A stretch of 64,000 nucleotides of DNA, counting the filler, from Sanchytrium tribonematis (lineage: Eukaryota), in NCBI GenBank assembly GCA_018985235.1. It is 5 parts of 5 records of this genome, joined end to end, with 100 filler letters (N's around TTAATTAATTAA, not from the genome) between each part and the next. Parts side by side here need not be neighbours in the genome. Positions count along the whole stretch, not along the records: positions 26,054 to 38,943 come from JADGIG010000206.1; 4 more parts are not named here. One strand, given 5' to 3'. A program made the translations under genes and the position numbers. Below, piece after piece: positions 13,604 to 40,514 of this stretch (the first letter of the stretch is position 1; the number at the start of each line of letters is the position of its first letter). The notes beneath the pieces are model-generated. The model made no database searches, was not told where the DNA came from, and was given only the letters and a program-made list of their open reading frames with translations.

Positions 13604-13610
13604 CATAAAT

Positions 13611-14530: not shown

Positions 14531-14998
14531 ATGAGTGCGGAAGAGAGACTGGCGACCGAGAGGAAAAAATTTAGAAAAGAAAGACCACAAGGATTTTACG
14601 CGAAACCAGCCACAAAAAGGAATGGAGAATTAAACCTTTTTATTTGGAATTGTAAATTCCCAGGAGTCGCAAATACCATTTGGGCTGATGGCACATATAA
14701 CGTTATATTAGAATTTCCACCTGACTATCCGAAAAACCCACCGACTGCAAAGTTTTCGCCTCCCATATATCACGTAAATGTGTATGATGATGGATTAGTA
14801 TGTCTCAGTTTACTAGACGCTAATCAGGATTGGAAATCAACAGTAGATGTCAAAACAATACTAATTAGCTTACAGATGCTTTTAAATAGTCCTAATATAG
14901 AATCTCCTGCCAATCCAACAGCTGGGATGTGGTATGGTGAGAACAAGGCCAAGTACAATGAAAATGTAAAAATTTCAATAAAAAGTATGAAGAATTGA
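14531..14998 (+). CDS. UBC9: SUMO-conjugating enzyme Ubc9
   Basis: RLATERKKFRKERPQGFYAKP, LNLFIWNC, HVNVYDDGLVCLSLL. Confidence 0.88.
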   Translation: MSAEERLATERKKFRKERPQGFYAKPATKRNGELNLFIWNCKFPGVANTIWADGTYNVILEFPPDYPKNPPTAKFSPPIYHVNVYDDGLVCLSLLDANQDWKSTVDVKTILISLQMLLNSPNIESPANPTAGMWYGENKAKYNENVKISIKSMKN

Positions 14999-15008
14999 AT
15001 TAGGTTTA

Positions 15009-16336: not shown

Positions 16337-16456
16337 TTTCGGTGGCTTGTGCAAATGCCATTCGTTTTAAAACAGCCAAAAAAGTCTATCAACCCCTGAT
16401 ATATTGAAAATGAATAAACGTGTGGCTATTTACGCCAAAGTTAAAACTGAACTGAA

Positions 16457-17908
16457 ATGCTTATATCCATAATTTTCGGTTTGGAATTAATTAACCTACT
16501 CGCTCAAGTTAATTACGTGCAACGCCCACTTCAAAAATCATTTACTTCTAAGCCTAAGTTTAATGCTGGCGTAGCCAGTGGGGATCCTACTTTAAACTCG
16601 ATTATTTTATGGACACGGGTAGAAAATTACAGTGGCGTAGTCTACGTTGAAATAAGTGGGAAGGAAACTTTAGAAAATAGCGTGATTCATCATTCAAAAA
16701 CTTCTGCAAAACACGATTATATAGTCAAATTGGATGTATCAGGACTTCGGGCTCACAAGCGCTACTATTATCAATTTTACGTCAATTATGGCAACAAAAA
16801 GATCAGGTCCCTGATGGGAACATTTAAAACTTTGCCTGTTGACACAAAGCACGTCAAGTTAGCTATAGCCTCTTGTCAAAATTTACCATATGGTTTTTTT
16901 ACACCACTGAAGATTATGGTGGATCTCAAGGCGGACTATCAAGTTTTTTTAGGTGACTATATTTATGAGTACAGAAATGGTCCTTATGGCAATGGCACTG
17001 CTATCAATCGTCTACCTAAGCCGAATAGAGACCTCACGACATTGTCAGATTATAGAACGCGACATTTGCAATATAAACAAGATAGAGATTTGCAGCATTT
17101 TCATCAATACATCTCACAAATACCTGTGTGGGATGACCATGAATTTAGTGACAATAGCTGGAGAAATGGTTCCAAATTAAGAAATAGCACTTTTATGGCG
17201 AGAAAATTAGCCGCAATGCAGGCTTATTTTGAATACATGCCTATACGTGTTTTCCCAAAACAAATGTTTGATCCAATTTATCGAACATTTCAGTTTGGAA
17301 AATTATTTGAGTTGATTATGATGGACACTAGAAGCGTTCGTGATCAAAATGGGATTAGAAACCCAAAGATAATTGGAAATCCTAATAGAACCTTATTAGG
17401 GACTGCTCAAGAGAATTGGTTAAAAAAATTGCCTTTAAAACCAACCAAATGGACATTATATGGTAATCAAATCGCCTTTGCAGTAGTGAACAAGAAAATT
17501 CACAATCTCAATTTCCCACTTTTAGAAGACGCATGGGATGCCTACCCAGCATCTAGACGGTTTATGATTGATTATATGCATAAGAGACAATTAGAAAGTG
17601 GATCCAAACCCATTATGCTCTCTGGAGATGTTCATATTTCCATGCACAATCGAATTGAAGGAATTGATGAGCTCATCGCTCCAGCAATTGCTTCTCTCAG
17701 CTTTGAGAATAAGCATCTAAAGTCTGTTGCTAATAAGGTACTGAATCTTTTGAAAGTAGGAGAGTCTTTGTGGGTCGATGTCTATTCGAAAGGATTTATG
17801 ATGTTGGATATATTTGTGGATAAAATCAACGTAACTTGGATCCATCTTGATGTCAAAAAAGACACTTATAATTACACAGTGGGTAAGAATATTGTAATTT
17901 CAAAATAA
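16457..17908 (+). CDS. PhoD-family alkaline phosphatase, probably secreted
   Basis: GVASGDP, ILWTR, ASC, LGDYIYE, WDDHEF, MDTR, LLG..QENW, DAWDAY, LSGDVH. Confidence 0.92.
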   Translation: MLISIIFGLELINLLAQVNYVQRPLQKSFTSKPKFNAGVASGDPTLNSIILWTRVENYSGVVYVEISGKETLENSVIHHSKTSAKHDYIVKLDVSGLRAHKRYYYQFYVNYGNKKIRSLMGTFKTLPVDTKHVKLAIASCQNLPYGFFTPLKIMVDLKADYQVFLGDYIYEYRNGPYGNGTAINRLPKPNRDLTTLSDYRTRHLQYKQDRDLQHFHQYISQIPVWDDHEFSDNSWRNGSKLRNSTFMARKLAAMQAYFEYMPIRVFPKQMFDPIYRTFQFGKLFELIMMDTRSVRDQNGIRNPKIIGNPNRTLLGTAQENWLKKLPLKPTKWTLYGNQIAFAVVNKKIHNLNFPLLEDAWDAYPASRRFMIDYMHKRQLESGSKPIMLSGDVHISMHNRIEGIDELIAPAIASLSFENKHLKSVANKVLNLLKVGESLWVDVYSKGFMMLDIFVDKINVTWIHLDVKKDTYNYTVGKNIVISK

Positions 17909-17913
17909 AAGAT

Positions 17914-18183
17914 TTATTTCAATCCGAGTAAAAGTAACAATGGCCCAAAAAAAGCGAGAAATAGCGAGTTTAACTCAGATTGTTGCATATTATCCATCTC
18001 CGCTTCGATTGAAAGTATAAGGAGATTTAGTGACTTGAGTTTGCTTATTGATGATGTTCCTTGTTTCTGAATATAAAGATTTCTTAGTTTAGACTGCAAT
18101 TGATCATAATGCAAGTTATTCGCACTTTCAGATAGCTCTGGACCCATTGACGCAAACAATACAATCAAATTCAGTAGTATCAT
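17914..18183 (-). CDS. Small hypothetical protein with signal-like N-terminus and hydrophobic C-terminus
   Basis: 89-aa ORF; stop embedded in AATAAA and 5 nt from the convergent PhoD stop, like the other genes here. Confidence 0.55.
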   Translation of the reverse strand: MILLNLIVLFASMGPELSESANNLHYDQLQSKLRNLYIQKQGTSSISKLKSLNLLILSIEAEMDNMQQSELNSLFLAFFGPLLLLLGLK

Positions 18184-19076
18184 TGATCTTCCATCAAGCG
18201 CATTCTATTTAACAAATCAATTTAGCTGATGATTGGTCAGAAGTTTTGAGTGATTGGTTGGGAACTCTATTCTGCAAAGGCAATCTCGGAATCCTTTTTA
18301 AAACTTTTGAGACATCAAATATAAAAACCAGTGAATTCAAAAATTTGAAAGACTTTTAGAATCTTTGAAATGTTTATTGGAAAAAAGGTATCCAAAATAA
18401 CTGTAAGAAATCTGATCTAGTCATCAAGAATAAAATGTTGATTCAAATTGAGTTTGCATTGTCGTCAATAAATAGTGCAGACATTAATTTTCCAATTTGA
18501 TAGAATTTTCATAAAGTTCCAATAGTGCGGTGTTCAAAGGTCCTACAATTTTTTGGTATCTTTCTTCTTTTTCCAAATATGAATTATCAAATAATAGAGA
18601 CGGATCAGATTTTTTCAGATATTTAATAATTTAAATGAAGACCTTGCTTTCTCCCTAGCAATATTACAAAAGCAAAAGCGCTTTGAAGATCAGTTTCGTT
18701 GTGTGTTCTTTTAAATTCATCTTGGTATTCTGTATGAATTCCTGTTCGTTCAGATTATTAAATTGTCTTTTCAATGCATTATAATTTGAATTCATGATTG
18801 CCATTCCATCTACGTAGTCATCTTTAACCTTTCCATACAAAAGAAGATTGACAATTTCCGGGTTTTTGGACTTAAACTCAAATAGCTCAATTAATCTAAT
18901 GATTGAAATTGCTGGTCTAGTTTCTATATCAAACACTCGAAAGTACACAATTTGATTGGCTGACATTATTTAGTCTAGTTTATATATTTGAAATACAACA
19001 AAAGCTTGAATCGATTTATCTCGAATTAACAGTTCAGAAGTTAGTCTAGTTTTTATATTTGGTGTCCCTTTTATTA

Positions 19077-21138
19077 TTAATTACTTCTGTCGAAAAATTC
19101 GTGAAACTTTGCAAGATTTCTATTTAAAGCTCGGAGCAGATAAGGATTCAATTGCTGTTGAAAATAGGAACCTAATTTGTGTTTCCCAATTCTTACTATT
19201 AGTTTGGTAGCGCACACCTTAACTTGTGGATCAAAATGAAAGAGTCCTATAGCAATTGGAGAGAGTCCTCCTTGATCTATAGGTAAATAACTTAATAACT
19301 ACATTAAACTTAAATACTTCTTCAATTTGATTTGGCTGTTTAATAATTTTTTCAAAAGCTACAAATGTGTCTCTGACTTCATCGATGGATAGATTGCTGC
19401 ATTGTCTCAATTTGACAATCTCTGTCCCAAGATCTATGCCTTTACATGGCCTTTCTATGGTATAAAGTTTGAAATCCTCAACCAAGTTTTTGTAAACTTC
19501 GTTGCTTCTAAATGCAAGAATTCTAGCCTTGTTTTGCTTTAGTTCTTCCCTATCGATTGAGTCAAAAAAGGTATAACCTGTTGGGGGCTCAAGATTTAAA
19601 TTAAACTGGTCCACTTCGTCTATTAAGTCTTGCTGTTGTAAAGCTACCTGGCAATCTTGCTCTTCTCTTTCATAAGCAATAAGCAAATGAACAAATCTTT
19701 CGATATATTCTTGAAGCTTCATTCTCACGAAATGCTCTCCACATCTATTACTGATCATGTCGACCACTTCCTCGACCAATTCAAAATCTGTGAGATATTT
19801 GTCCAGCTTGGTTTTCTGGTTTTCTTTGTCTTTATCACGACTTTTTGTCCTTCTATGCATTTCCTCTGTGCTCAGGGTTTCCAGCATATCTTTCTTTATA
19901 ATCGATTTAAACCACTTTTCTTTCTTTTCGTCATCTTTGTGAGCTACACAATCTGGGCTTATGGTGACTTCACCAGTTTTCACATTAACAAGAACATCCC
20001 ACCATTTGGTTTTTGTTTCATATGCAGGATTAGTTACTCCTGCAATGTATCCTGGGCAACCAAGTACTGTATCCAGATGAAAAATACTACAATAGGGAAA
20101 GCACCGTTTTGAAATGCCTCTTAAAATTGAACCATTACCACTGGCAATTGAAACTAATGCCAAAACATGTTGACAAACCTCGCTTGCACTAATTGCATGC
20201 CCAAGAAATAATACTCTTTTTCCAGTGAGTACGGCATTAATCAACACTATCAAATTTGGGGTTTCAACACCACTGCTGTGCAGTTCCTTGATCATTGGGC
20301 CAGTTGGGAATTCTGTACCAGCTTTATTATACTTTTGAATGAAATCTATTATACTAAACTCACCTATTCTTTCAATTTTTTTGGTCGAAATAATGGGTAT
20401 TTGCAATTTCATACTTACTTTGTAAGCGCTGATCGTAACTTGTTGAGTTTTGTTTTCAGGAAAAACACTAGCCCGTCTTCTAATAAGCCCTACATTTTCT
20501 TGAGGTTGAATTTGGTCGAAATTTGAAACTGTCTGTCTTTTCTTGGCAGATTCGCTTTGGCTTCTAGGTCTTGGTTTCTTCTTAATTTCACTTTCGCTTT
20601 TCGTTCGGTCTCTAAATTCATCTGTACTGGCTTCCAAAGTTGCCATTTTTGGTTTAAATACTTCAGTGCGATTGAATTGAGTAGTCTCGGTTTGTTCGAT
20701 AATTTTTCTGCGATATTCAGGAATGGGTGAAATTTTTGAAATGTCACTGTTGTTTATCGCTTCAAATACAATTTTAAGCATATCGGGATCATTTGATTTG
20801 AAATATTGATCAAGCGTTAAAACAAGCAAGGGACGAAAGACGTGCAAAAAAGGTTTTGTGCTACAAATTGCTAAGGCTTTCATTCTTGCACCTCGCTGGG
20901 CAGTATCATCTTTTTTTGTCATAACCAAATTCAATGCATACATCTGCTGATTAGATTTCAAAAAGTGATGAAGAAAAAACCAAGTCCAATCCGTATCCCT
21001 TGAATGACCTCCTTCAGGCAACATTAATTCGGCTAGAACCTGTTCGTCAACACCCGTTGGAGTAGGATACTGCTGCCGCAAGGTGCTTCCCTTTAGAATG
21101 TCAAACTCGCTTAATAAAACATAGTCCACGATAGTCAT
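19077..21138 (-). CDS. DENN-family polarity protein Afi1/MesA-like; join(complement 19318..21138, 19077..19298)
   Basis: VDYVLLSEFDILKGS, LAELMLPEGGH, RGARMKALAI, IAGVTNP. A 19-nt intron at 19299-19317 yields LLSYLPIDQGGLSPIAIGLFH. Confidence 0.85.
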
Positions 21139-21273
21139 TTTATAGGAGTTTCAAAATTGCTTGAATTTTTTTATAGTTATTCCTAATCTACCTTGTCTCA
21201 AAGTAAAAGAATTAAATGCTGTTGATATTCGATATCTTTTTCATATTTTGCGCCAAAAATAATTTAGGTCAAA

Positions 21274-21831
21274 ATGTTGTTTTATTCCTCTTATTTGGCT
21301 GCAAAATATTGTTTTGAGAACAACTTGTGTTATTCCCTTAACAAAGGCACTGATAACTTGGAGGTATATATTGAAGCACCAATCCAAGGCTGGGCTGGGA
21401 TTGGATTCTCAAATTTAACTATTGGAATGAAAGCAGATGTGCTATTGTTTTGGAGCTACAATAATTCTGTAATTGTCAGCCCTAGATTAGCAAGTGCCTA
21501 TAGCAGACCAAGTACAGTGAGTCAAAATGTAGCAATTATCAATCAAACGGTTACAGATACTGGATTCCGTGTAGCGTTCTCACGACCATTGTTAGCTACA
21601 GGTGGATACTCATATAGTTATGGGGATTATGTGTTACTCGCATACACTAATACTCCGATTTCAAGTTCCAGTGCAAGCTATGCAATTGGAAAGCATGTCA
21701 ATCGCACAAGATGGCAACCACAAGAAAGCGCATCTGCTCAGTCTACAGACACACCTCAAGGCCAAAATTCTAATGCCGAACAATTACTCAATATTTTGCA
21801 TATGTTCTTTTTGTTTGCAAATTGGATTTAA
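21274..21831 (+). CDS. DOMON-domain surface/secreted protein
   Basis: GWAGIGFS...MKADV, FSRPL, conserved H (IGKH); hydrophobic C-terminus suggests a GPI signal. Confidence 0.7.
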   Translation: MLFYSSYLAAKYCFENNLCYSLNKGTDNLEVYIEAPIQGWAGIGFSNLTIGMKADVLLFWSYNNSVIVSPRLASAYSRPSTVSQNVAIINQTVTDTGFRVAFSRPLLATGGYSYSYGDYVLLAYTNTPISSSSASYAIGKHVNRTRWQPQESASAQSTDTPQGQNSNAEQLLNILHMFFLFANWI

Positions 21832-21902
21832 TAAATATTTAACATTCAAGGAGATTAGGTAATGATCGAATAATATTGAGGAGTTGAAACTACATTCATC
21901 AA

Positions 21903-23796
21903 ATGGCGGAACGATCTGAAAATCATGAATTGGCATCAATTTCTAAAAATGAAGATCAAAAGGAAAAGCTTCTAAATGAGGAAGAAATTACACTCACTTG
22001 GCATGATATTAAATATACGATTACCAAAAAAAAGAAAGATACTACATTATTGGCTGGAATTAGTGGAGAGGTCAAAGCAGGCGAGATGGTAGCGATACTT
22101 GGAAGCTCTGGGGCTGGAAAATCGACTTTATTAAATGTTTTGAGTGGCCGCGTGAATACTGGTAAAATTGAAGGCCAGGTTTTAGTCAATGGTCAGCCCA
22201 GAGATCCTAAAATTTGGACAAAGCAATGTAATGTTGTGGAGCAAGATGACATGTTTTATGCTACGACTACAGTGAAAGACGCAATTGCATTCAGTGGAAA
22301 GCTAAGGCTACCGAAACAAAGTCCGGAGAGCTTAAACAAAACTGTCGACACCACTATAGAAGAACTAGGACTTATTCATGTAAAAAATACGAGGATTGGG
22401 GACGCAATCAGAAGAGGTATCAGTGGTGGAGAAAGGAAACGTTGCGCAATTGGAGTCGAATTGGTTACCAATCCTAAACTATTGTTTTTGGACGAGCCGA
22501 CTACTGGACTTGATAGTTTTATTGCATACAATATTATACAGACACTGAAAAATCTAGCCGCTAGAGAAAATCGATCCATCCTGATGACAATCCATCAGCC
22601 AAGAGAAACAATTGTTGCCCTGTTTGACAAAATTATGCTACTGAGCAAAGGACGCTGTATTTTTTTCGGTAATATACAAGAGGCCTTAGACTATTTCTCT
22701 AAAAACGGGTTTCCTTGCCCAGAAAATACGAACCCTGCAAATTTCTTTATCGATCTGATCACAATAGATTATCGAACTGAAGAAAAACGAGAGAAAAGTG
22801 AAAACAGAATCAATAAGTTGATTGAAAATTGGAAGCAGCACGATTTTAAAGCAAAATATCCGAAAATACAGGAGTACCATGTGGCAGGTGGCCACCTTAG
22901 TTTTCAATACAATTCTACTTGGCTATATGAATTTGGAATACTATTTAAAAGAAGTCTTAAAGAAACGACACAAAATCCGGCCATTGTTGGCATCACCATT
23001 GTGCAGTCTTTGTTCCAACTTTTGCTTCTTGGTGTGGTGTTTAACAACTTAGACAAGTCCCAAAAAGGAATTCAAAATCGTATTGGTTTTGTATTTTTTC
23101 TGTCTCTCAATTTACTGTTCACTAATGTCATGCCAACCGTAAATACCTTTCCCCTATTGAGAAGCATTATTAGCAGGGAGAGACGATCTGGAATGTACAG
23201 AGCAAGTTCCGCGTTTCTTGCGAGGCTATTAAGTGTGTTTCCATTAATTACATTCCAATGGGCATTTTTTGTAATTCCAATTTATTGGATCTTGGGGATG
23301 GATCCCGCTGCTGATAAATATGTCATTTATTTTGTAGCTGCATACCTACACCAAATTTTTGCATGTTGCCTTGGTTTGATGATTGGATCAGCAGTTCCGG
23401 TAATTTTGATTTATATAGACTCCAGAATTGGGTCAGGTTATCGCCCCTATAGTAGCTTTGTTGATGATAATATTTGGAGGTTTGGTTGTGAATTTAAAAT
23501 CCCTCTCGCCAGCCATTTCTTGGCTACAATACCTCAGCCCAATTAGCAACACAGTGAAAATTATGAGTCAAAATGAATTCAAAGGCCAGGTGTATAATTG
23601 TGTCTCAAAAGCTCAAACTCCTAATGGGCCACAGTGCGTAGATTTAACTGGTGAGGATATTTTATCAAATCAAGCACTTGATACACCAGTTTTGTTAGTT
23701 TGCTTTATAATTAACATAAGCTGCGTTGTATTCATGGCAATATGTGGAGTGTGTTGCTTTAATCGAACAACAAGGCCAAAATTAAAGTTAAAGTAA
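21903..23796 (+). CDS. ABCG half-transporter (White/ABCG2-like); join(21903..23399,23419..23796)
   Basis: GSSGAGKST, ISGGERKR, LDEPTTGLD, TIHQP and TMD. A 19-nt intron at 23400-23418 joins the two ORFs (AVP|TPELGQ). Confidence 0.93.
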
Positions 23797-23805
23797 ATTT
23801 AATTC

Positions 23806-23968
23806 TCAAACTCTGGTGCTTGAATTTTTTTTATTATATTTACTTTGGATGTTTTCTAGCTCAAGTATTATCTGACTTTGTTGATTTTGTGTAATACTGT
23901 ATAAACAAAAAATACAGAAAGTCATTGTAAGGTAAAATTTCACTAATGGATTTGCATCTTGATTCCAT
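23806..23968 (-). CDS. Putative 47-aa micro-protein; join(complement 23916..23968, 23806..23896)
   Basis: ATG at 23968, consensus 19-nt intron gtattttttgtttatacag (23897-23915), stop 9 nt from the convergent ABCG stop. No homology recognised. Confidence 0.4.
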
Positions 23969-24013
23969 TAATTGCAATTTGTTGCTATAATCGGAAAAAG
24001 CTGAAGTAAAATT

Positions 24014-24905
24014 TTATTTTTTGTACTTTGTGACTTCAATCCCTCTTTTAATTTCTACTTTGGATGTTTTTACCCTGGAGGGACCTGGCACATTTCTTTC
24101 TCGTTCTTTTTTTAGAGTATGACTAGGTGTGGAATATTCGGAATTTTCTCCAAGTAATTCTTGGAATGGCAAAGGCAATTTCTGTATATGAACAGTTTGC
24201 ACCTCATTTAAATCCAATTTATGATCTGTAGGGCTGTTTGATAGTACTGGTATTGTCTCATTATTTAATGCAGACAATCCTCTCATAAATGCCTGTTTTA
24301 ATTTTGCTTCATACTGTTCTTTAGATTGTTGAACAGCATTCAACTGGTGTGTGAGAGAAGCAACTTGCTGTCGAAGCTATATGAGTAGGAATAACGTCTA
24401 TTATATCTGTTTCGTATCTTTGTCGCAATTCGTGAATTTCCTTGTCATGTTTAGCCTTAACCCTTTTTTCAAAAACTTTTTCTTTAGATTGTTCAATTTG
24501 CCCTTTCCAGCCCTCTAGCACTCTTCTCTTAAGGTGTCGCTCGTAAATCACGCTCGTGGTTTGTTCTTTAAGTTTTAAAATTGATGACGATTGGAATTTA
24601 ATTGCCCATACACTGTAATATTTATGTTTTAATTTTGAATATGCTGCTTTACAAAGAATACTAGCAGCATTTTCTAAAAATTCGTTTTTTAAATCCGCTT
24701 TTGCTTGTAGTTCTAAATTAATATTATTCAGATTTTGAAGCTTGTCTTGAACATCTTTCAGTTTTAATAAATGCTCGCGTTCAAATTCCGTCATTTTTGT
24801 ATTATATTCATGCTTCAGTTGATTATGAGAGTCTGCCATATCAGCTATGACTGCTTTCTTGAAAAGCATCGTCCACTTATCCAAATCTCCAGAAAGTTTT
24901 TCCAT
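24014..24905 (-). CDS. POC5: Centriolar protein POC5-like; join(complement 24396..24905, 24014..24376)
   Basis: Coiled coil with Sfi1-like W-containing repeats and LKQAFMRGLSALNNE (POC5 signature-like); 19-nt intron at 24377-24395. Confidence 0.75.
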
Positions 24906-24954
24906 TTTGGGCTTTTATATTGACCTAGTAACAAAGTTTTCACATAATTTATAT

Positions 24955-25953
24955 TTATTCTTCAGATTCTATCAATATCACTTCCTTAATCTTTCCATCT
25001 AAACCGCCACTTATTATTTTGTTGTTAAAAACATCCAATGTCCTGATAGTATTGGTATGAACTTTAATTTTCATCAAAATTGAGTCAGTAGTGGCGTGTT
25101 TAATAGCTAGATTCTTCTTGATCTCAAAAATGTATAAATGCTGGTCCGCACTTGTAGCAACAAAAGTGTTCGCATCCAGAAATTTGACTTTTGGCAAAAA
25201 ATACTCATTATGAATAACTCCATAGAATTTGGTAAGTAATTTAAATGGATAGAGTGAGCAGTACAAAATTAGTCCCGAGTCAGAGTCCGTAGTTAAAAGG
25301 GCGTGACCCTCAAATATATCCATGTCCATGACATTAAAGCTAATTACGTTGTCTCCAGTAGCATTAAGATTGTGGTGGTTCACCTCATTTTTGTACTCAT
25401 AAAGCTCATGGCTATTTTGGCAGGCAATAAATAAATTTTCGTCAACATATATTAGCTTTGAAATATTGCCTTGAAAATCTAGTGATTTAATTATGGTCAT
25501 GTTGTGATCCAAAATGACGACTCTATGATCATAGCCACCTGTCGCTATGTTGTTTCTATTTACGGAAATGGTATTTAAATACTTTTGATGAATTTGCACG
25601 ATTTCACATTCCTTTGTGTGTAAATTAGTTTTTGATAATTTACCGTCTATACCTCCCATGTAAATAAAATCTTCGTAAATTTCCACACATAATATTGGTG
25701 TTTTATGTCCTAATTTATCGGTGAGGTAATAATCGTGAGGTTGGATGCAAACAGATTTGTCGACACTACTCGATACGATTCTATCATCATGATATTTGCA
25801 GAACAAAATATTATCTGTGTGGGTATGCGATATTTCTTTGATATGGTAATCCTTAAACAATAGCGACTTTTTGCTTGAAGGATTTAGTTGAATCCACAAT
25901 TTTATCAAATCTTGCAATGTGGGTAAATCAACAGATTTGGTTTCAATATCTTG
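24955..25953 (-). CDS. WD40-repeat protein, probably 5' partial at contig end
   Basis: Multiple WD-like repeats (SSSVDKSV, TGGYDHRV, SGGLDGKI). Confidence 0.75.
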   Translation of the reverse strand, partial: QDIETKSVDLPTLQDLIKLWIQLNPSSKKSLLFKDYHIKEISHTHTDNILFCKYHDDRIVSSSVDKSVCIQPHDYYLTDKLGHKTPILCVEIYEDFIYMGGIDGKLSKTNLHTKECEIVQIHQKYLNTISVNRNNIATGGYDHRVVILDHNMTIIKSLDFQGNISKLIYVDENLFIACQNSHELYEYKNEVNHHNLNATGDNVISFNVMDMDIFEGHALLTTDSDSGLILYCSLYPFKLLTKFYGVIHNEYFLPKVKFLDANTFVATSADQHLYIFEIKKNLAIKHATTDSILMKIKVHTNTIRTLDVFNNKIISGGLDGKIKEVILIESEE

Positions 25954-26053
25954 NNNNNNNNNNNNNNNNNNNNNNNNNNNNNNNNNNNNNNNNNNNNTTA
26001 ATTAATTAANNNNNNNNNNNNNNNNNNNNNNNNNNNNNNNNNNNNNNNNNNNN
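25954..26053. other. Artificial contig spacer
   Basis: N44-TTAATTAATTAA-N44. Confidence 0.97.
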
Positions 26054-26559
26054 CTCTAGTTTCACGTTATCAGAATTGTGGTTATTCTCAAAGATCCAAT
26101 TGCCTGATGAATTTGCTAGAGCAATTTATCTCATCTTCTAATGCGTATGAAATAAGCCAGACAAGAATATTAATCTTTACTGATAAAAAGATATATTCTC
26201 GCTTTTTATATAGAGCCCTAAATGAGAACAACATACTTAAAAATTACAATCCTACCTTTATTGTGGGACAAGGTGGAAATGGTAAAATGAATTGGGAAAA
26301 AGATCAAAAACATATATTGAAGAATTTTGAAAAAGGAGTGTCCAAAATTTTGATCAGTACCTCTGTCCTTGAGGAGGGTTTAGATATATCACAATGCAGC
26401 CATGTAATATTATTCAACGATGAGGCTATAAATCATTTGAGAATGATTCAAATGAGAGGAAGGGCTCGTAAATCGGAAGGAAAATTCATCATTTTATCGA
26501 AGCTATTGTTAAACGAACCATTAAAGACTTGTCTAAAGAATGGAAGAATGTCAAACTAG
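26054..26559 (+). CDS. Dicer/RIG-I-like SF2 helicase C-terminal (Hel2) domain, 5' partial; probably the N-terminal part of the downstream RdRP gene
   Basis: Motif IV RILIFTDK, FIVGQG, motif V ISTSVLEEGLDISQC, motif VI MIQMRGRARK. Frame open from the contig start; overlaps the RdRP frame over 26472-26559. Confidence 0.85.
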
Positions 26560-29500
26560 ATATTAAATTAAGAGAATTTATCTCCAAGTTTAAATCCTCA
26601 AAAATAATAATACCGCAAGCCCCACATGAAAAACCATGTCTGAATGAAATCAGATTTGATTTTTTGACAGACGAGTATACTGATGATGACTTGGACAATC
26701 TAATATCTCTGTTGGGCAAATCAGATATAAAGTGTGAAAATTTTGTTATATCGTCCTCTCAGACTCATACTGAGCTACTATTTAATCTATCTGAAGCCTT
26801 GGCTTCTACCCTACCTTCTCTCTGTTGGAAAATTAGACCCAGCAATATTGACTTCAAGCCAGCAGTCGATCATATTCTTTTCTCCGTCAACCAGGTTTCT
26901 AGAGGATTTTCTGTAGACAAAACTCAATTTTGTTGTATAGATTCTACTCATCCGGAAAAAATCAAAATACTGGATTTTAATTTGAACGAACTTTCTTTGG
27001 AATTTCCCTACAAAACATGTATGGCAAAAGCACACTTTCAAACCATTTACCCAAATATATATATAGATTTGTGCGAGTCCAAAATGATGCTACTATTTAC
27101 TTCTCCGCCACTGTTTTACACCGATGGATCCAGGAAAAAACGCGAATTTTTGGATCTGAATTTTCAGCCGATGTACTTTGCTTTCGATTTAAATTTGAAA
27201 GACGAATTTTTGGTTTCTTTTTTACCATTCTATTCGGCTTTTGGCTCTTTTAACATACAATTTGTTTCCTTTAGTACAGTTTATTCCAAATTTGATTTGA
27301 ATGAATCCTCATTAAGTTTTGAATCTTTATGCTACATCTCAAAATATTCTTGTTATCTATATCCTGGTTTTAAAGTTAATCAAATACTTGATAAGACTGA
27401 GGATTTCGAAAAATTGATGTCTAATTTGCCAGTTCCATTTACAAAATTTGAGCCTAAATTATTTTCTGGAAACAAATATTTGCAGTCATTCAAATTTCAT
27501 AAAAGAGTACATAGATATATTTTTACACCAAGCAGAATGATCATTGAACCGTATCTGTTGGTGCATAATAATAGAGCCATCAATTTCGAGGAAGCAGATG
27601 TAGTCGAAAACTTTTGCCTATTTCAATTTTTGGATGAAAATTTCAACAAAGTAAAGCCAAGTGAAAAAAAATTGGTCGAAAGGTTGAATCAAATCTTACA
27701 AACGGGATTTTTTGGTCCCTACAAAAGAAAGTTTCGCTTTCTAGGTGCCACCTCCTCGCAAGTATTAGAGCATTCTGCGTGGTTTACGACTTATAACCCT
27801 GAAGAATTTTTGTCTTCGATGGGAAATTTTGAAGAGATATTAAACCCCGGTCTTCGTCTAAGTCGGATTGGCTTGCTTTTCAGTTCCACTATGTCAATAT
27901 GTAAAATTCCATCCGGATCATTATTTTCGGCTTCAGAGGACATATTTACACTTGATTTTAAGTTCAAATTTTCAGATGGCTGTGGGTCTATAAACTTAGC
28001 TGTGGCTCAAATAGTTCAAGATAAATTGGATCTTGACTTTCTTCCTTCAGCTGTGCAATTTCGAGTGGGTCCATATAAAGGAGTATTGAGTGTCAATAAT
28101 AGACAAGTTGAGCCTTTTAAATTCCGACCTTCTATGAAGAAATTCTTCAGTTTCAATAGAGCATTCGAAATTGTAGGATTTTCGAAACCCAATAAGTGCT
28201 ATTTAAATCGACAACTGATTATGATATTAACATCTTTGGGTTTGGAGGAAAAATTATTTTTAGATTATTTAGACAATGACATTAAAGACATATTCATGTC
28301 TAATATAAATTCTATACAGCAAATTCTTAGTCCAGATATCCCATTTTTCTCAAAAGACTGTTTAGATAGATTAGTCACCTTTAATGTCGAAAACGACAAT
28401 TTTTGGACTAATATAATCCATTTGACGAGAATATCGATGATTAAAAATTTAAAAGATAAGGCTAGAATTCATGTTCCCCAAGGTAGACTTTTACTTGGGA
28501 TTATCGACGAGTTCAATATTTTAAAGGAAAATGAGGTTTACATTGCAATCACCTTAGAAGATCAGAGTATAAAAGTCATTGAAGGCGATCTGATTCTTAT
28601 CAAGAATCCTTGCATACATCCTGGGGATTTAAGGCCAGCAACGGCGATTGGTAAACATCCAGATTATCATGGGCTAGTCGATGTCATTATCATGCCTTCA
28701 AAAGGTGTCAGGGATTTAGCCTCTCAAACTAGTGGTGGAGATTTAGATGGGGACCAATTTACTGTGATTTGGGATCCAAAATTGAGACCACCTGAATTTT
28801 TTGAGCCAATGACGGAAGGGCCGACGATAACGAGCAAATTCAAAGGTAGTATAATAGATGCATACATCAAGATTGTGACCGAGGATTGTATTGGCACTTT
28901 GAGTCATGCTCAACTAGCGTTGGCAGATCAAAGGCCTGGTCATTTCTTAAATCAAGATGTAATAGATTTTTCAGGTTTGATAAGCAAAGCTGTTGATTTT
29001 CCTAAAAGATTAACTTCTTTCGATTTTCCCACTGCTATAGTTGATGACTTAAAATACCCAGACTATTTGGAAAAACACAGCAGTATTAGCTACATCAGCA
29101 CCCATGCGCTAGGTTTTATTTATAGAAAGTGCAAATCTTATCTAAATCTTACAAAGCCAAAAATTACTCCTCAAATTATGAGTCATGATTACCAAAGCGT
29201 ATTTGAAGATGCATACAATGAGTACAGCAACAAGCTTTTTAGCATTGGAAGACTATATCAATGTGAAAATGAGTACGAAATTCTTACTGGGTGTGTGATA
29301 TTGAAGGCATTTAGGAATAAAGAGTCCAGAATTAGGGCGCATGTTAACCAAATGGTCTCGGTTTTGACCAAAGAAACTAGGGTTAGAATAATGCAGATCA
29401 TGAGGAACGAGTTAGATAGTTCATCCACAAATGAGAGGGGGCTACTTCTCAAGAAATTAACCAAGGCCTTAAAATGTTTTCAATTGCAATCATTTGGATG

Positions 29501-31886
29501 GTGTGTATACGAAATTTTGTTTGAACACGATGCAACAAAAATTGTTACTGGTTCTAGTATCAACACAGATCGAGGACTGAATGTTGAATTGAAAAAATAC
29601 TTTGATGTTGCTAAAAAAGACATCTTAAGTGAATATCAAAATAGAATACATTTGATGAATAGGGTTGACCTAGTTTGTAGATCCATTCATCCAGAGTACA
29701 AGGCATTTTTGTATGGTAGCAGTTCGTATTTACTATTTGATTATTTCAGTGATACCGATATAGGTATATATTCTAATGAACCTATCCTAGAAGCAATGTA
29801 TGTCTTGCTTAAAGCAGAATTCCAATCAATACAATATATCAAAAATGCTAGAGTTCCAATTCTAAAGTCGACTACCCCAAGTTTTGATATATCTCAGAAT
29901 ATAAAAGGAATTTGTAAAACTTTAATAATTTTACATGTTATTGATACTAACCCCGAATTTTATGCGCATTTTTTATTGATTGCACAATTTGGTAGATCAT
30001 TTGGTTTAATCCAGTCGCAAAGACTAAATGAATTATCTCAAATAATAAGCACATTTGGCCTCATTTATTTATACATCCAACATATAAGACAATTTAACGA
30101 GTTCCATATTATGTCCGATGCCACAGTCATGAAAAATTATGAAAGCGATATTTTAACATATATTGAAAAATTACCTAAAAATTTGGACAACATAATTGAA
30201 AAATTGGAAAATTTAAAGTTTGAATCTAGTTACGTCTTAATTTCTTTTTTTCAAAAGTACTCAAAGGCCAAGGCGATTAAAGTGGATGATCCTGTCAATT
30301 TTGGACAAAGTTTGGTAAATATTGCAGACGAAAAAATAATATACTTTAATAGTGCATGCTTGGAATTTTTGGACTTGTTGCATATATACAAGAATAATAT
30401 CTCCAAATTGTTTGAAAAAAAGGATATCAAAAGCATCATTCGACTTCCAAATCACATCAAACATGAATTTGAAACTAAATTAAGCTTTTATAAAGAAAAT
30501 ATAATTCAACAAGCTTCCAAATTAGCAAAACGCAAAATTTTGGTTGATCTGACAATTGACGTGAAAACTTACAATTCCTTTGTGCATCTAAGTGGTCCCT
30601 CTGAAGATATAGGAATTGTTCAGCCGATTTTGAACTCACTCATTCAGGATATTGTTCACTACAAAAGAGGAAGCGGAGGCGCAACATACCTTCTAGGTTC
30701 TTTCCATTTAATGGTCGAAGACTCGAGTCATGATTTTACAGTAGTACAATTTGAAAAATTGGAGCGAAACAAATCTATTCGAGATGAGTTGTATTTTATC
30801 AAATCACAACAAGAACGCCTTGATAATAATTTAATGAAATTTCGTATTGCGTGCAAAGACCAATTGTTACACCTAGATTGTGCCGAGTCTTTATCAAGAT
30901 TTAAGGCGACTGTAAAGTTTGGAAACTTATATTTTAAGAATATTGAAAATGCAGCTATGGAAATTCACGAGTTGGAAGATTTGCTCGTTCATTCCTTAAA
31001 TCAAACTTCTATGGATAAGATAGATGATAAGAAGGTCGAAGATGATCAAAACCAAAACTTTCGTTCTCTTAAAATTTTAGATTTTGATAATTCCTCCAAC
31101 GCTGTTAAAGAACAAAGAAAAAAGTTTCATATGAAAAAAGTTCGATCTTTTGGCAACAAAAAGGCAAAACCTTCAATTGCATTTTCTAGAGCAATAGTCA
31201 TTTCTGAGACCTTGTGCAATTTTTTAGTGTCACAATTTCAGCTGGAACATTACTCAACTATTCAGGAGCTTGTTATTTCATCAAAAATTGATGGCCAGCT
31301 TTGTAAGATTGTTATAGATGTCAGCTATGCACCTAAATTTTCGAAAATTTTGAAACATTCAAAGCGCTTGTTGGATGCCAATCTTGTGACAAACGACTCT
31401 CTTTTGAAAGTCCCGGATATAAGATATAACATTGAATCCAAAGATTTTATTAAGGATATAAAGGAAGAATACAGATCCATTTTAAATATTAATCAGGCCA
31501 TAAAATCAATTGGAAATATCAAATTTATTGAGCGAGATGAAGTGAATGCTACTTTTCCTTTTAAATTAGACTCTGAAGTCTTGAAGATGTTTAATGCATC
31601 TCACATCCGATATATCGTCAGAAAAGGGTTTTCTTGTTCCATGAATCCTGATGGCGCATTCAATTTAATCAGTCTGGAATACTTTAAAAGATTTTATATT
31701 AATAAGGTATGTAATGCAGAAGTGAGAAATGGAGAAGCTAAAGTAATTTCCGATTCAGTAGAAATACAAATTGATGTCAACATGCCCAAGTCAACAAAAA
31801 AGGACTCCGAAATGGAAAGATTTGCAGAAAGCTTTTACAACTTAGGCACCGATGTAATCAAAGTGATGCGAGAAAATGTTTTGTGA
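26529..31886 (+). CDS. Cellular RNA-dependent RNA polymerase fused to a Cid1/TUTase-family nucleotidyltransferase and an unknown C-terminal region
   Basis: RdRP: FSDGCG, QFRVGPYKGVL, RPSMKKF, LNRQLI, KNPCIHPGD, SGGDLDGD (28740-28754), AVDFPK. NTase: LYGSS..SDTDI (29712-29762), ARVPILK, FDIS (29886), FFQKYS, DDPVN. Confidence 0.92.
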   Translation: MSKEWKNVKLDIKLREFISKFKSSKIIIPQAPHEKPCLNEIRFDFLTDEYTDDDLDNLISLLGKSDIKCENFVISSSQTHTELLFNLSEALASTLPSLCWKIRPSNIDFKPAVDHILFSVNQVSRGFSVDKTQFCCIDSTHPEKIKILDFNLNELSLEFPYKTCMAKAHFQTIYPNIYIDLCESKMMLLFTSPPLFYTDGSRKKREFLDLNFQPMYFAFDLNLKDEFLVSFLPFYSAFGSFNIQFVSFSTVYSKFDLNESSLSFESLCYISKYSCYLYPGFKVNQILDKTEDFEKLMSNLPVPFTKFEPKLFSGNKYLQSFKFHKRVHRYIFTPSRMIIEPYLLVHNNRAINFEEADVVENFCLFQFLDENFNKVKPSEKKLVERLNQILQTGFFGPYKRKFRFLGATSSQVLEHSAWFTTYNPEEFLSSMGNFEEILNPGLRLSRIGLLFSSTMSICKIPSGSLFSASEDIFTLDFKFKFSDGCGSINLAVAQIVQDKLDLDFLPSAVQFRVGPYKGVLSVNNRQVEPFKFRPSMKKFFSFNRAFEIVGFSKPNKCYLNRQLIMILTSLGLEEKLFLDYLDNDIKDIFMSNINSIQQILSPDIPFFSKDCLDRLVTFNVENDNFWTNIIHLTRISMIKNLKDKARIHVPQGRLLLGIIDEFNILKENEVYIAITLEDQSIKVIEGDLILIKNPCIHPGDLRPATAIGKHPDYHGLVDVIIMPSKGVRDLASQTSGGDLDGDQFTVIWDPKLRPPEFFEPMTEGPTITSKFKGSIIDAYIKIVTEDCIGTLSHAQLALADQRPGHFLNQDVIDFSGLISKAVDFPKRLTSFDFPTAIVDDLKYPDYLEKHSSISYISTHALGFIYRKCKSYLNLTKPKITPQIMSHDYQSVFEDAYNEYSNKLFSIGRLYQCENEYEILTGCVILKAFRNKESRIRAHVNQMVSVLTKETRVRIMQIMRNELDSSSTNERGLLLKKLTKALKCFQLQSFGWCVYEILFEHDATKIVTGSSINTDRGLNVELKKYFDVAKKDILSEYQNRIHLMNRVDLVCRSIHPEYKAFLYGSSSYLLFDYFSDTDIGIYSNEPILEAMYVLLKAEFQSIQYIKNARVPILKSTTPSFDISQNIKGICKTLIILHVIDTNPEFYAHFLLIAQFGRSFGLIQSQRLNELSQIISTFGLIYLYIQHIRQFNEFHIMSDATVMKNYESDILTYIEKLPKNLDNIIEKLENLKFESSYVLISFFQKYSKAKAIKVDDPVNFGQSLVNIADEKIIYFNSACLEFLDLLHIYKNNISKLFEKKDIKSIIRLPNHIKHEFETKLSFYKENIIQQASKLAKRKILVDLTIDVKTYNSFVHLSGPSEDIGIVQPILNSLIQDIVHYKRGSGGATYLLGSFHLMVEDSSHDFTVVQFEKLERNKSIRDELYFIKSQQERLDNNLMKFRIACKDQLLHLDCAESLSRFKATVKFGNLYFKNIENAAMEIHELEDLLVHSLNQTSMDKIDDKKVEDDQNQNFRSLKILDFDNSSNAVKEQRKKFHMKKVRSFGNKKAKPSIAFSRAIVISETLCNFLVSQFQLEHYSTIQELVISSKIDGQLCKIVIDVSYAPKFSKILKHSKRLLDANLVTNDSLLKVPDIRYNIESKDFIKDIKEEYRSILNINQAIKSIGNIKFIERDEVNATFPFKLDSEVLKMFNASHIRYIVRKGFSCSMNPDGAFNLISLEYFKRFYINKVCNAEVRNGEAKVISDSVEIQIDVNMPKSTKKDSEMERFAESFYNLGTDVIKVMRENVL

Positions 31887-31909
31887 AATAAATTTATTGT
31901 TTCGGTCAA

Positions 31910-32401
31910 ATGGAAAAATTAAAAACAGAAAGAACAAAATCAGTCCAATATGAAAATGCTAGACAAATTTTGAATCAGGTGCCTGGTCAGAACATAGGAC
32001 CTAGAAGAGCCACCATACAAGCTGATGCTGGGGATTTTGAAAATGTGGTGGACCGATTAAAAACACAAGAATTGAAATTGATTAAAAAAAGCAAATTATC
32101 AATTAATCAAGTTGGCAGCCAGAATATTAGCACAGCAAAAATAGAAATTAAAAATCCAAAAGAAATTAAAATTGATATCACAAATGAAAAATATTTACTG
32201 CCATCATCTTTGATCACACCAACAAATTTGCGCAAAGAATTATCTGATTTGCAACTTAGCCAAGAGGTAATTACGGCAGGAATTCCAATCTTAAAAAGAA
32301 TTAGGCTAAAAGCCATAGAAGAACTAGGTAAGAAATCGGAATATGTAAAGCGTTGTGAAGAACATATTGATTTAATTATGAAACATGGCGGCGATTTATA
32401 G
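31910..32401 (+). CDS. Hypothetical protein
   Basis: 163-aa ATG-initiated ORF filling the space between genes; no family recognised. Confidence 0.6.
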   Translation: MEKLKTERTKSVQYENARQILNQVPGQNIGPRRATIQADAGDFENVVDRLKTQELKLIKKSKLSINQVGSQNISTAKIEIKNPKEIKIDITNEKYLLPSSLITPTNLRKELSDLQLSQEVITAGIPILKRIRLKAIEELGKKSEYVKRCEEHIDLIMKHGGDL

Positions 32402-32435
32402 TTTTTAATAAAAGTCCAGTTTTGCCTCTAATTTC

Positions 32436-33629
32436 ATGCTTTTCGAATTAAGCATTTTATTTTATGTTGCGTTGTTAAGATTTGAGAATGTTGATCATTC
32501 ATTCTTATACAAGACCAAATATAATTGGATTCGAGAATTTTCATTAGATTTCCAGACAGTCAATCATTGTAGTAGAAGTGTGGGTGTTCGTTATAATTAT
32601 ATCAAGGAAGCCCGTTTCAAATATTTTATAGTATTAAATTTACACAACAGTGACCAAATATTACCAAATATGGCACTGCAAATCAACAAATTAATATTTT
32701 CATGGCTGGGTACTGACAATGTCTACATATCGATTTACGAGTCGGGAAGTAGTGATTACACCAAAGAATACCTTCGACAGTGGTCAAAATTGTTGAATAC
32801 CAATAAAGTGAGGCACCATTTCCAAACGGAAACTATATCTAAAACAAAACAAATGAATAGGATAGATTATTTAGCAAGAGTGCGCAATAAAGCCCTGGAT
32901 CCATTGAAATACCTCTCAAACATTGTGTTCGATCACTCAATATTTTTAAATGATATTCTCTTTTGTGTCGACGATCTGCTGGAATTAATCCATCAGCGCA
33001 TCTTTCAAAATGCGTCAATGGTTGCGGGGCTAGACTTTGATATGAAAAAGGATAGACTCGGATTCTACGATAATTGGGTGATGCGGGATATGAATGGCGA
33101 GATTCCGCATTTCTTTATAGAGAATTTGATGACTGATCCCAAAAGTAATATAGATATTCAAATGCGAGATCCTACACAAGTGATTTGTATTTGGAATGGC
33201 GCTGTTGTCATTGACCCTCAAATATTTCATGAGACTATATTTTTTCGAAGAGGCAACAATCGAGAACCCGGGTTAAACAAGCCAGGCGAATGTTCTGCCA
33301 GTGAAATCACGACATTTTGCATGGATATGATCAGAAACGGATTTGATAAAGTTGTTTTAGTTCCTACTGTCCATGTAGTTTACAATATGAAAGACTTCAA
33401 AAAGCTAAAATTTGGGAACGATCCATTAAGTAAAGAATCTACAAATGTTAGGATACAAACTAAAAAGGTCCAATTCAGACCATTACCCCAATCATTTGTA
33501 TGCGAGCCGTATCATGATCATTGGAGGCTTAATGGACCTAACAAAAAACTGAGCTATAAAGAAGCAATTCCGCCAAGAATTGTCAAAACCAAGGTGTTTC
33601 AAAGACCCTTAAAATTTTCAGCAAGTTGA
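32436..33629 (+). CDS. CAP59/CMT1-family alpha-1,3-mannosyltransferase (GT69)
   Basis: ISIYESGSSD, RIDYLARVRNKALDPL, FLNDILFC, FYDNWVMRD, CIWNG, CSASE. Confidence 0.88.
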   Translation: MLFELSILFYVALLRFENVDHSFLYKTKYNWIREFSLDFQTVNHCSRSVGVRYNYIKEARFKYFIVLNLHNSDQILPNMALQINKLIFSWLGTDNVYISIYESGSSDYTKEYLRQWSKLLNTNKVRHHFQTETISKTKQMNRIDYLARVRNKALDPLKYLSNIVFDHSIFLNDILFCVDDLLELIHQRIFQNASMVAGLDFDMKKDRLGFYDNWVMRDMNGEIPHFFIENLMTDPKSNIDIQMRDPTQVICIWNGAVVIDPQIFHETIFFRRGNNREPGLNKPGECSASEITTFCMDMIRNGFDKVVLVPTVHVVYNMKDFKKLKFGNDPLSKESTNVRIQTKKVQFRPLPQSFVCEPYHDHWRLNGPNKKLSYKEAIPPRIVKTKVFQRPLKFSAS

Positions 33630-38943: not shown

Positions 38944-39043
38944 NNNNNNNNNNNNNNNNNNNNNNNNNNNNNNNNNNNNNNNNNNNNTTAATTAATTAAN
39001 NNNNNNNNNNNNNNNNNNNNNNNNNNNNNNNNNNNNNNNNNNN
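38944..39043. other. Artificial contig spacer
   Basis: N44-TTAATTAATTAA-N44. Confidence 0.97.
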
Positions 39044-40401: not shown

Positions 40402-40514
40402 TTCAAAATTTTGTTTATTAAATACCTTTTTTCCTTCAAATAAGCGGCAAAAAGGGCGATTGGAGCCTCCTTGTTTCTGCTTTGTTAATTACATGGAATT
40501 TTAGGTCACTCCAA

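What the first reader, a model, noticed from the sequence alone, without database searches (positions are those of the whole stretch)
26054..31886. Candidate all-in-one RNA-silencing amplifier: Dicer/RIG-I-type helicase + RdRP + terminal nucleotidyltransferase
Seen: one 1785-aa frame carries a complete cellular RdRP core (SGGDLDGD, 28740-28754) followed in frame by a Pol-beta/Cid1-family nucleotidyltransferase. The NTase has the GS motif and all three catalytic Asp (YGSS...SDTDI...FDIS) plus ARVPILK and DDPVN. Directly upstream is a Dicer/RIG-I-class Hel2 domain. Established: these activities act as separate subunits in S. pombe RDRC (Rdp1, Hrr1 helicase, Cid12), Tetrahymena (Rdr1 + Rdn1/2) and C. 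elegans (RRF-1/EGO-1 + DRH-3, with RDE-3/MUT-2 tailing templates). Helicase-RdRP fusions are known in Dictyostelium. Inference: this protein could bind RNA, tail it and copy it by itself. The DDPVN loop lacks the His that gives Cid1 its UTP preference, so tail chemistry (U, A or UG) is open. I cannot tell from the sequence whether the fusion is already catalogued.
Basis: partly seen in the sequence, partly recalled or inferred. Interest (0 to 1): 0.9.

Follow-up and report, generated by a model that had tools for sequence, protein, structure and literature searches.

The report
One-chain RNA copying and tailing machine
This fungus-like microbe's gene joins an RNA helicase, an RNA-copying polymerase, a predicted RNA-tailing enzyme and a predicted triphosphate-gripping barrel in one protein, a design shared by sponges, Hydra, slime moulds and algae, which likely lets a single chain tag RNAs and copy them for gene silencing.

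Summary
The RdRP (Pfam E 1e-118) and a Cid1/GLD-2-type nucleotidyltransferase share one 1,804-codon frame. The NTase models onto Cid1, GLD-2 and TUT4 (Z about 20). Its Asp triad is kept in 64 of 70 RdRP-bearing relatives.

(1) The helicase is out of frame in the window. A public DNA run has 43 more bases there, which join the frames with the ortholog's exact spacing, so the break is probably a second haplotype or an assembly fault.
(2) A KH-like domain and a triphosphate-tunnel barrel follow the NTase. The barrel is closest to RESC1/2 (Z 19-22), and its metal-binding glutamates appear lost.
(3) The design is pan-eukaryotic: Amoeboradix, a chytrid, sponge, Hydra, dictyostelids, liverwort, diplonemids, dinoflagellate.

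It belongs to the known helicase-RdRP clade (Dictyostelium RrpA-C type). One preprint legend already notes an NTase in two amoebozoan RdRPs. I found no paper on the barrel or on any function of these domains. This scan found the same design earlier on other DNA. Tail chemistry and activity are untested.

The parts
26056..26498 (+). C-terminal RecA-like lobe (Hel2) of a Dicer/RIG-I-class helicase, cut at the contig edge; the rest of the helicase and the N-terminal zinc-type domain(s) lie outside the window
   Evidence: Pfam Helicase_C E 7.3e-13; 50% identical to Amoeboradix P0002 aa 595-729; a family profile hits ancestral Dicer helicase 9mw6 (1.6e-119), DCL1 and RIG-I
26495..26498 (+). Frame break: a 4-base repeat at which the window has 43 bases fewer than run X1
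   Evidence: The X1 contig has 39 extra letters plus the 4-base repeat; read by hand this gives 15 codons without a stop that join both frames; the ortholog has 15 residues at this place
26499..27521 (+). Post-helicase helix and RdRP N-terminal region
   Evidence: Continuous alignment to P0002 from its aa 745
27522..29132 (+). Cellular RdRP core, catalytic DLDGD at 28740-28754
   Evidence: PF05183 E 1e-118, whole profile covered; plant RDR2 7eu0 E 2e-73
29133..29585 (+). Helical region that closes the RdRP and links it to the NTase
   Evidence: The RDR2 match continues to aa 963; DxDGD-to-GS spacing is 316-412 aa in 70 relatives
29586..30434 (+). Cid1/GLD-2/TUT-type terminal nucleotidyltransferase; GS at 29715, Asp at 29751, 29757 and 29886; recognition loop DDPVN at 30285
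   Evidence: PF22600 E 2.7e-8; profile hits GLD-2 E 9e-8; model residues 1-283 match GLD-2 Z 21.0, TUT4 Z 20.8, Cid1 Z 20.4; triad in 64 of 70 relatives
30417..30677 (+). KH-like domain without the GxxG loop (tentative)
   Evidence: Beta-alpha-alpha-beta-beta-alpha order; type I KH domains match at Z only 2.5-3.4, rmsd 2.3-3.5 over 70-80 residues for most; weak KH_1 hits, below cut-off, in 2 of 36 relatives
30690..31886 (+). Triphosphate-tunnel (TTM) barrel of the RESC1/2-Cet1 type; conserved Arg at 31422 and 31608, Glu at 31761; probably not catalytic
   Evidence: RESC1/2 Z 19.0-22.0, Cet1 Z 15.8, Pct1 Z 13.9; Foldseek E 1e-9; R1651 in 61 of 62 and R1713 in 56 of 62 aligned rows

Best explanation
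This is the 3' three-quarters of one gene for a protein of about 2,500 residues that carries a helicase, an RdRP, a predicted nucleotidyltransferase, a likely KH-type domain and a predicted triphosphate-tunnel barrel, and it likely works as a one-chain version of the RdRP-tailing complexes of fission yeast and ciliates.

Shown: the domain order, intact RdRP and NTase motifs, and conservation across eukaryotes.

Inferred steps: (1) the helicase, with an N-terminal zinc-type domain seen only in relatives, loads on a structured or cut target RNA; (2) the NTase adds a short untemplated tail to the target's 3' end; (3) the RdRP uses the tailed end to start copying; (4) the barrel, which seems to have lost the metal-binding glutamates but keeps tunnel arginines, would hold the 5'-triphosphate end of the new strand as RESC2 holds guide RNAs; (5) the double strand goes to Dicer or Argonaute to silence transposons or viruses. 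The window's first 700 bases are probably a second haplotype with a frameshift, or an assembly fault in one; the main form in run X1 is in frame.
For: One frame holds RdRP, NTase, KH-like domain and barrel. The ortholog P0002 is one 2,532-aa chain, 35% identical over 1,847 columns and 50% over the helicase piece. The X1 contig (48.8 kb) bridges the break in frame. Of the 150 listed profile hits, 73 have RdRP followed by NTase and 37 of these also have both helicase lobes. GS is kept in 69 of 70 and the Asp/Glu triad in 64 of 70. In a quick unrooted tree of RdRP domains, 29 family rows and 19 plain plant and fungal RdRPs are split by one branch, SH-aLRT 98. NTases are required partners of RdRPs in Tetrahymena, Paramecium and S. 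pombe (PMC4066745 passages), and template tailing feeds RdRPs in C. elegans (bioRxiv 2024.05.27.596008 passages). Dictyostelium RrpC, a helicase-RdRP, is needed for spreading of silencing (PMC3661229 passages; PMC3950715 title and passages). RESC2 binds 5'-triphosphate RNA with an inactive tunnel (bioRxiv 2023.02.01.526499 passages).
Against: No activity was tested, and every mechanistic step is by analogy. The window's own letters break the frame between helicase and RdRP, and the in-frame form rests on one run of one study that may be the window's own source. In 14 of the 150 hits an RdRP is followed by the KH-like domain and/or barrel with no NTase profile hit, and 6 of 70 lack part of the triad, so some lineages (oyster type) do without tailing. 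The recognition loop is remodelled: 40 of 70 have Trp where Cid1 has Asp330. Nematostella, which has helicase-RdRPs, showed no secondary siRNAs after dsRNA injection (PMC12768352 passages); I did not check that its RdRPs carry the NTase. In Arabidopsis, NTases also act on the RdRP's product. The barrel's residues were mapped by motif, not by superposition.
Confidence: 0.55

Rival explanations
1. Same protein, but the NTase tails the RdRP's product rather than its template, making a 3' overhang for Dicer or marking products for turnover.
For: HESO1 extends RDR6-made dsRNA by UU, and the authors propose the same for Cid12. The NTase follows the RdRP directly and precedes a barrel that could hold the product's 5' end.
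Against: Template tailing is the documented role in C. elegans and is named in the title of the Tetrahymena RDRC paper (seen only as a reference). Nothing in my calls separates the two.
Confidence: 0.2
2. An innate-immunity sensor and effector rather than an siRNA amplifier: it recognises foreign RNA ends, then tags or copies them for a response that does not pass through secondary siRNAs.
For: The helicase is of the Dicer/RIG-I class. The N-terminal domain of relatives gives weak Yippee-Mis18 hits in 5 of 19 and RIG-I C-terminal-domain hits in 4 of 19, all under the curated cut-offs. Nematostella RdRPs are induced by poly(I:C), yet no secondary siRNAs were seen. Branchiostoma RdRPs were suggested to act outside RNAi (PMC6396948 passage).
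Against: The Dictyostelium helicase-RdRP RrpC is needed for transitive small RNAs and transposon silencing. No signalling domain was seen in any scanned relative.
Confidence: 0.12
3. The gene is decaying in this organism: the helicase half is uncoupled, and only an RdRP-NTase from Met184, or nothing, is made.
For: 43 bases are missing at a 4-base repeat in the window. The same stretch differs from X1 at 14 letters, 9 of them synonymous against 20% expected (P 4e-4), so it looks like a real second haplotype or copy and not base-calling noise; the frameshift may be real in that haplotype.
Against: X1's contig at depth 86 is in frame, and no listed X1 record shows the short form (some records are filtered out). 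The remaining 5.4 kb has no stop and keeps all catalytic motifs.
Confidence: 0.06
4. The NTase fold is a non-catalytic RNA-binding or scaffold domain.
For: The recognition loop is poorly conserved and the triad is lost in 6 of 70, including the oyster type.
Against: G 70/70, S 69/70 and second Asp 70/70 across sequences only about 15-30% identical is hard to explain without catalysis.
Confidence: 0.07

Closest known systems
Helicase-RdRP clade: Dictyostelium discoideum RrpA/RrpB/RrpC, oomycete RDR, Hydra and Nematostella RdRPs (PMC4791657, PMC3661229)
   Same: Dicer-type DExH helicase in front of a cellular RdRP in one chain. Hydra vulgaris and two other dictyostelids (Heterostelium, Acytostelium) are direct hits with the same C-terminal half.
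   Different: Those papers describe only two domains (helicase, RdRP). The NTase appears only in the legend of bioRxiv 2023.10.19.562841 Extended Data Fig. 10 (two RdRPs); I found no mention of the KH-like domain or the barrel. I did not test D. discoideum RrpA-C themselves.
RDRC-type complexes: S. pombe Rdp1-Hrr1-Cid12; Tetrahymena Rdr1 with Rdn1 or Rdn2; Paramecium Rdr1/2 with Cid1/2; C. elegans RdRPs downstream of RDE-3
   Same: RdRP coupled to a Cid1-family NTase.
   Different: Those are separate subunits; here one chain. Hrr1 is, from my recall, a ZNFX1/Upf1-type helicase, whereas this one is Dicer/RIG-I type. No barrel is described in those complexes as far as I saw.
Cid1, GLD-2/TENT2, TUT4, CutA
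   Same: Fold (Z about 20-21, rmsd 3.0-3.8 over about 250 residues), GS motif and three Asp.
   Different: No His at the Cid1 His336 position by counting; the loop is remodelled across the family; no closer family could be named (hits tie within 1 Z unit).
Trypanosome RESC1/RESC2 and fungal Cet1/Pct1 RNA triphosphatases (TTM barrel)
   Same: Best fold matches for the last 400 residues, Z 19-22 and 14-16; conserved tunnel arginines.
   Different: Only 10-14% identity; fused to an RdRP; metal-binding glutamates mostly absent as in RESC1/2, unlike Cet1; binding untested.

Membership tests
Cellular RdRP (PF05183) | Full RdRP domain with DxDGD | tested here: met
   E 1e-118 over the whole profile; DLDGD at 28740
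Helicase-RdRP clade (RrpA-C type) | DExH helicase in the same chain, N-terminal to the RdRP | tested here: met
   Hel2 present; in frame in the X1 contig and in ortholog P0002, though out of frame in the window's own letters; motifs I and II lie outside the window
Helicase-RdRP clade (RrpA-C type) | RdRP domain groups with dictyostelid and Hydra helicase-RdRPs, apart from plain RdRPs | tested here: inconclusive
   One branch (SH-aLRT 98) separates 29 family rows from 19 plain rows, but the tree is quick, unrooted, and its plain set holds only plant and fungal hits; deep forks inside the family are weak
Helicase-RdRP clade (RrpA-C type) | Needed for secondary small RNAs or transposon silencing | not testable with these tools
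   No RNA holder listed; no genetics
Cid1/TENT-type nucleotidyltransferase | Pol-beta palm plus helical central domain | tested here: met
   Model (pLDDT 83) residues 1-283 match GLD-2, TUT4, Cid1 at Z 20-21
Cid1/TENT-type nucleotidyltransferase | GS motif and three catalytic Asp | tested here: met
   Present at 29715, 29751, 29757, 29886; 64 of 70 relatives keep the triad
Cid1-type poly(U) polymerase | His336 in the nucleotide-recognition motif | tested here: not met
   Gln by counting from the Asp-Pro; His is not among the five commonest residues of that column in 70 rows. 16 of 70 rows show a His two columns later (read). Not checked by superposition. His336's role: PMC13702519 passages
Cid1/TENT-type nucleotidyltransferase | Untemplated nucleotide addition to RNA 3' ends | not testable with these tools
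   Needs an assay
TTM barrel (Cet1/RESC type) | Triphosphate-tunnel beta-barrel fold | tested here: met
   RESC1/2 Z 19.0-19.6 (rmsd 3.2, 239-264 aligned), Cet1 Z 15.8 among 48,161 chains; Foldseek E 1e-9
Active RNA triphosphatase (Cet1) | Three metal-binding Glu (Cet1 E305, E307, E496) | tested here: not met
   The matching columns hold Lys, Thr and Gln here; Glu in 10 of 58, not among the top four of 59, and 10 of 57 rows. The mapping uses the ExExK motif recalled from memory plus one search's residue numbers, not a superposition
RESC2-like 5'-triphosphate binder | Basic tunnel residues that bind the triphosphate | tested here: inconclusive
   R1651 (61 of 62) and R1713 (56 of 62) are conserved on barrel strands; their match to RESC2 K311/R359/R402/R424 was not established
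Type I KH domain | Fold and GxxG loop | tested here: inconclusive
   Element order fits, but Z is only 2.5-3.4; no GxxG
RDRC (S. pombe, Tetrahymena) | Multi-subunit complex of separate RdRP and NTase proteins | tested here: not met
   One reading frame; it works like an RDRC at most, and is not filed as one

The most novel reading that the evidence does not exclude
An ancient eukaryotic RdRP class, kept from slime moulds and diplonemids to sponges, Hydra, liverworts and early fungi, is a self-contained machine that senses an RNA end, tails it, copies it and then holds its own 5'-triphosphate product in a dead capping-enzyme barrel. The multi-subunit RdRP-tailing complexes of model organisms would then be split or rebuilt forms of a job once done by one chain.
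Probability: 0.3. Interest if true: 0.85.

Novelty: new variant of a known kind. Interest (0 to 1): 0.6.

Why it matters
Why RdRPs need tailing enzymes is unsettled: template tagging or product finishing. A natural fusion with separable active sites lets single Asp mutants answer it, and the clade includes dictyostelids and Hydra, where genetics exists. It also offers a lead for the unexplained RdRPs of sponges, cnidarians and molluscs, and gives the triphosphate-tunnel fold a possible role in RNA silencing. This locus itself is a poor entry point: it is cut at the 5' end, frameshifted in the window, and in a non-model organism.

Tried and rejected
Intron joining helicase and RdRP: the GT/GC-AG candidates listed remove sequence that aligns with the ortholog, whereas the ortholog needs 15 MORE residues; rejected once X1 showed the extra 43 bases.

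Linkage to the upstream WD40 gene: rejected; it is on another piece and another X1 contig. The 5' half of the gene is not elsewhere in the window, and no whole genome is held, so Dicer and Argonaute content of the host is unknown.

Horizontal or viral origin: no sign; GC 0.33 and GC3 0.31 match six neighbouring ORFs, and neighbours are housekeeping genes.

Expression: no RNA holder listed, which is no evidence either way.

Stand-alone relatives of the NTase domain (156-499 aa): none at E <= 1 among 707 candidates; this word search is insensitive and names no donor family. ESM Atlas gave no usable hit for the barrel region. Pfam has no convincing family for the barrel region in 36 relatives. 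The careful tree did not finish; only the quick one is used. No NTase or helicase tree was built.

Literature: ten full-text searches (plus 69 on RESC). RdRP + triphosphate tunnel + RNAi gave 0 papers; RdRP + nucleotidyltransferase + fused + helicase + Dictyostelium gave 0. Subscription papers are mostly not held; Talsky and Collins 2010 was not held, and the supplement of PMC11014262, which may show which RdRPs carry the NTase and where, could not be read.
Full report
What is in the window. The window is a string of pieces joined by N-padded linkers, from a compact, 34% GC eukaryote with fungal-type housekeeping genes. The finding starts at the first base of one piece (26054). A frame at 26056-26559 encodes a helicase C-terminal lobe (Pfam E 7.3e-13). 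A different frame, 26472-31886, is open for 1,804 codons and encodes a complete RdRP (E 1e-118) and an NTase palm (E 2.7e-8).

The frame break. The closest relative, Amoeboradix gromovi P0002, is one 2,532-aa chain. It matches the helicase frame at 50% up to its residue 729 and the RdRP frame at 35% from residue 745; the window has only 2 bases for the 15 residues between. The one public run that holds the stretch (X1, DNA) has a 48,824-base contig that crosses the place with 39 extra letters plus a repeated 4-mer, 43 bases in all. Read by hand this gives 15 codons without a stop and joins the frames. The same contig differs from the window at 14 letters, all in 26109-26738, and X1's main records show none from there to 32500; a minor 140-base record differs at 4. 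Nine of the 14 are synonymous where 20% is expected (P 4e-4). The neighbouring piece also shows differences crowding at its end, with two variants side by side. So the window's first 700 bases most likely come from a second haplotype or copy; whether the 43-base loss is real in it or an assembly fault is not settled. X1 may be the window's own source, so it is not independent support.

The NTase. A profile of the C-terminal half from five relatives hits GLD-2 (E 9e-8), MEAT1, Trf4 and CutA in the PDB. An AlphaFold model of window 29586-31883 (64 sequences, pLDDT 83) matches GLD-2, TUT4 and Cid1 over residues 1-283 at Z 20-21. The same profile finds 361 proteins at E <= 0.001 among 1.84 billion representatives, of which 150 were listed; these include the rows the profile was built from. 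With my own domain profiles, 73 of the 150 have RdRP then NTase, 37 of them with both helicase lobes; 14 have an RdRP and the later domains without an NTase hit; 63, mostly short, have no RdRP. For motif counts I kept the 70 rows with a DxDGD upstream and NTase coverage and dropped 80: G 70/70, S 69/70, Asp/Glu triad 64/70. The recognition loop is variable; Cid1's Asp330 position is Trp in 40 and Asp in 18 of 70, and this protein has Gln at the His336 position by counting (His336's role from PMC13702519 passages). U, A or mixed tails all remain possible.

Two more domains. Earlier notes of this scan suggested a triphosphate-binding barrel at the C-terminus of similar proteins; I tested it. A second model of 30417-31883 (pLDDT 77), aligned to 48,161 chains, gives RESC1/2 Z 19.6 and 19.0, Cet1 15.8, Pct1 13.9, then other tunnel enzymes; Foldseek agrees. 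Two arginines are nearly invariant (61 of 62, 56 of 62) and one Glu is conserved (47 of 57), while the columns that I map by motif to Cet1's metal ligands are mostly not Glu. RESC1/2 lack two of these three ligands, and RESC2 binds 5'-triphosphate RNA (bioRxiv 2023.02.01.526499 passages). Between NTase and barrel sits an 85-residue domain with KH order but low Z and no GxxG: tentative.

Spread. Oopsacas, Prorocentrum and Ostrea came; the oyster form lacks the helicase and has a degenerate NTase. Helicase motifs I, II and VI are present in 25, 28 and 28 of 28 full-length relatives, and their profile is closest to ancestral Dicer helicase, DCL and RIG-I. A four-Cys N-terminal domain gives only weak Yippee or RIG-I C-terminal hits; it lies outside the window. 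In a quick unrooted RdRP tree the window pairs with Amoeboradix (90) and the family is split from plain plant and fungal RdRPs by one branch (98); that fits one origin but does not show it.

What is known. Helicase-RdRPs are described for Dictyostelium, peronosporomycetes, Hydra and Nematostella, with a common origin of their helicases; that paper's main text never mentions a nucleotidyltransferase (PMC4791657, passages). Dictyostelium papers list two domains for RrpA-C and show RrpC is needed for spreading and DIRS-1 control (PMC3661229 and PMC3950715, passages and titles). However, the legend of Extended Data Fig. [quoted passage not shown] So the three-enzyme layout has been noted in passing, not studied. 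I found nothing on the barrel. Separate NTase partners of RdRPs are established in S. pombe, ciliates, C. elegans and Arabidopsis, with both template-tailing and product-tailing models (PMC4066745 and bioRxiv 2024.05.27.596008, passages). Against a simple amplifier role, Nematostella gave no secondary siRNAs (PMC12768352, passages).

Verdict. The fusion is real (about 0.93 for the domain layout). It is a member of a known clade whose C-terminal third has been largely overlooked. The most likely mechanism is bind, tail, copy and hold the triphosphate end (0.55), all by analogy. The scan has reported the same design on other DNA; a look-up by sequence and by place found no note on this DNA.

Noticed in passing
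window 12935-13034, 25954-26053, 38944-39043, 51905-52004: N-padded linkers join pieces of steadily falling length (12,934 to 12,861), so the window looks like size-sorted, unlinked contigs; gene neighbourhoods across linkers mean nothing.
   Followed up: yes
window 13035-25953 versus 26054-32500: Run X1's contig depth is about 47-49 on one piece and 86-92 on the next, and both show two-variant bubbles at uneven depth (63:22; 37:24; 33:17). Could be uneven ploidy or a mixed culture; the tool warns that depth is no copy number.
   Followed up: partly
window 40422-41219 (+): Radial spoke protein 3 (Pfam E 1e-25), a flagellar gene, in an organism whose RdRP is closest to a sanchytrid's; sanchytrids have a reduced, non-motile flagellum according to an abstract.
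   Followed up: no
window 7063-12483 (+): PI3-kinase with Ras-binding, C2, PIK and kinase domains (class I/II layout) behind about 1,000 N-terminal residues without a Pfam hit at 1e-5.
   Followed up: no
window 58306-59478 (-): Tc1/mariner-type transposase with an open frame (DDE_3 E 1e-12, HTH_Tnp_Tc3_2), a possible target of RNA silencing in this genome.
   Followed up: no
window 32412-33629 (+): CAP59-type mannosyltransferase (E 8.5e-54) two genes downstream on the same piece.
   Followed up: no
window 45335-47608 (-), 50711-51904 (+), 15365-16366 (-): Long ORFs (757, 398, 333 aa) with no Pfam family at 1e-5.
   Followed up: no
proteins P0012, P0099, P0145, P0166, P0171, P0180: A branch of the family (oyster type) has lost the helicase and NTase catalytic residues but keeps the KH-like domain and barrel, a natural comparison for what the barrel does alone.
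   Followed up: partly
protein P0002 aa 1-215: The Amoeboradix ortholog seems to carry two N-terminal Cys clusters in tandem where sponge and dinoflagellate relatives have one (read).
   Followed up: no
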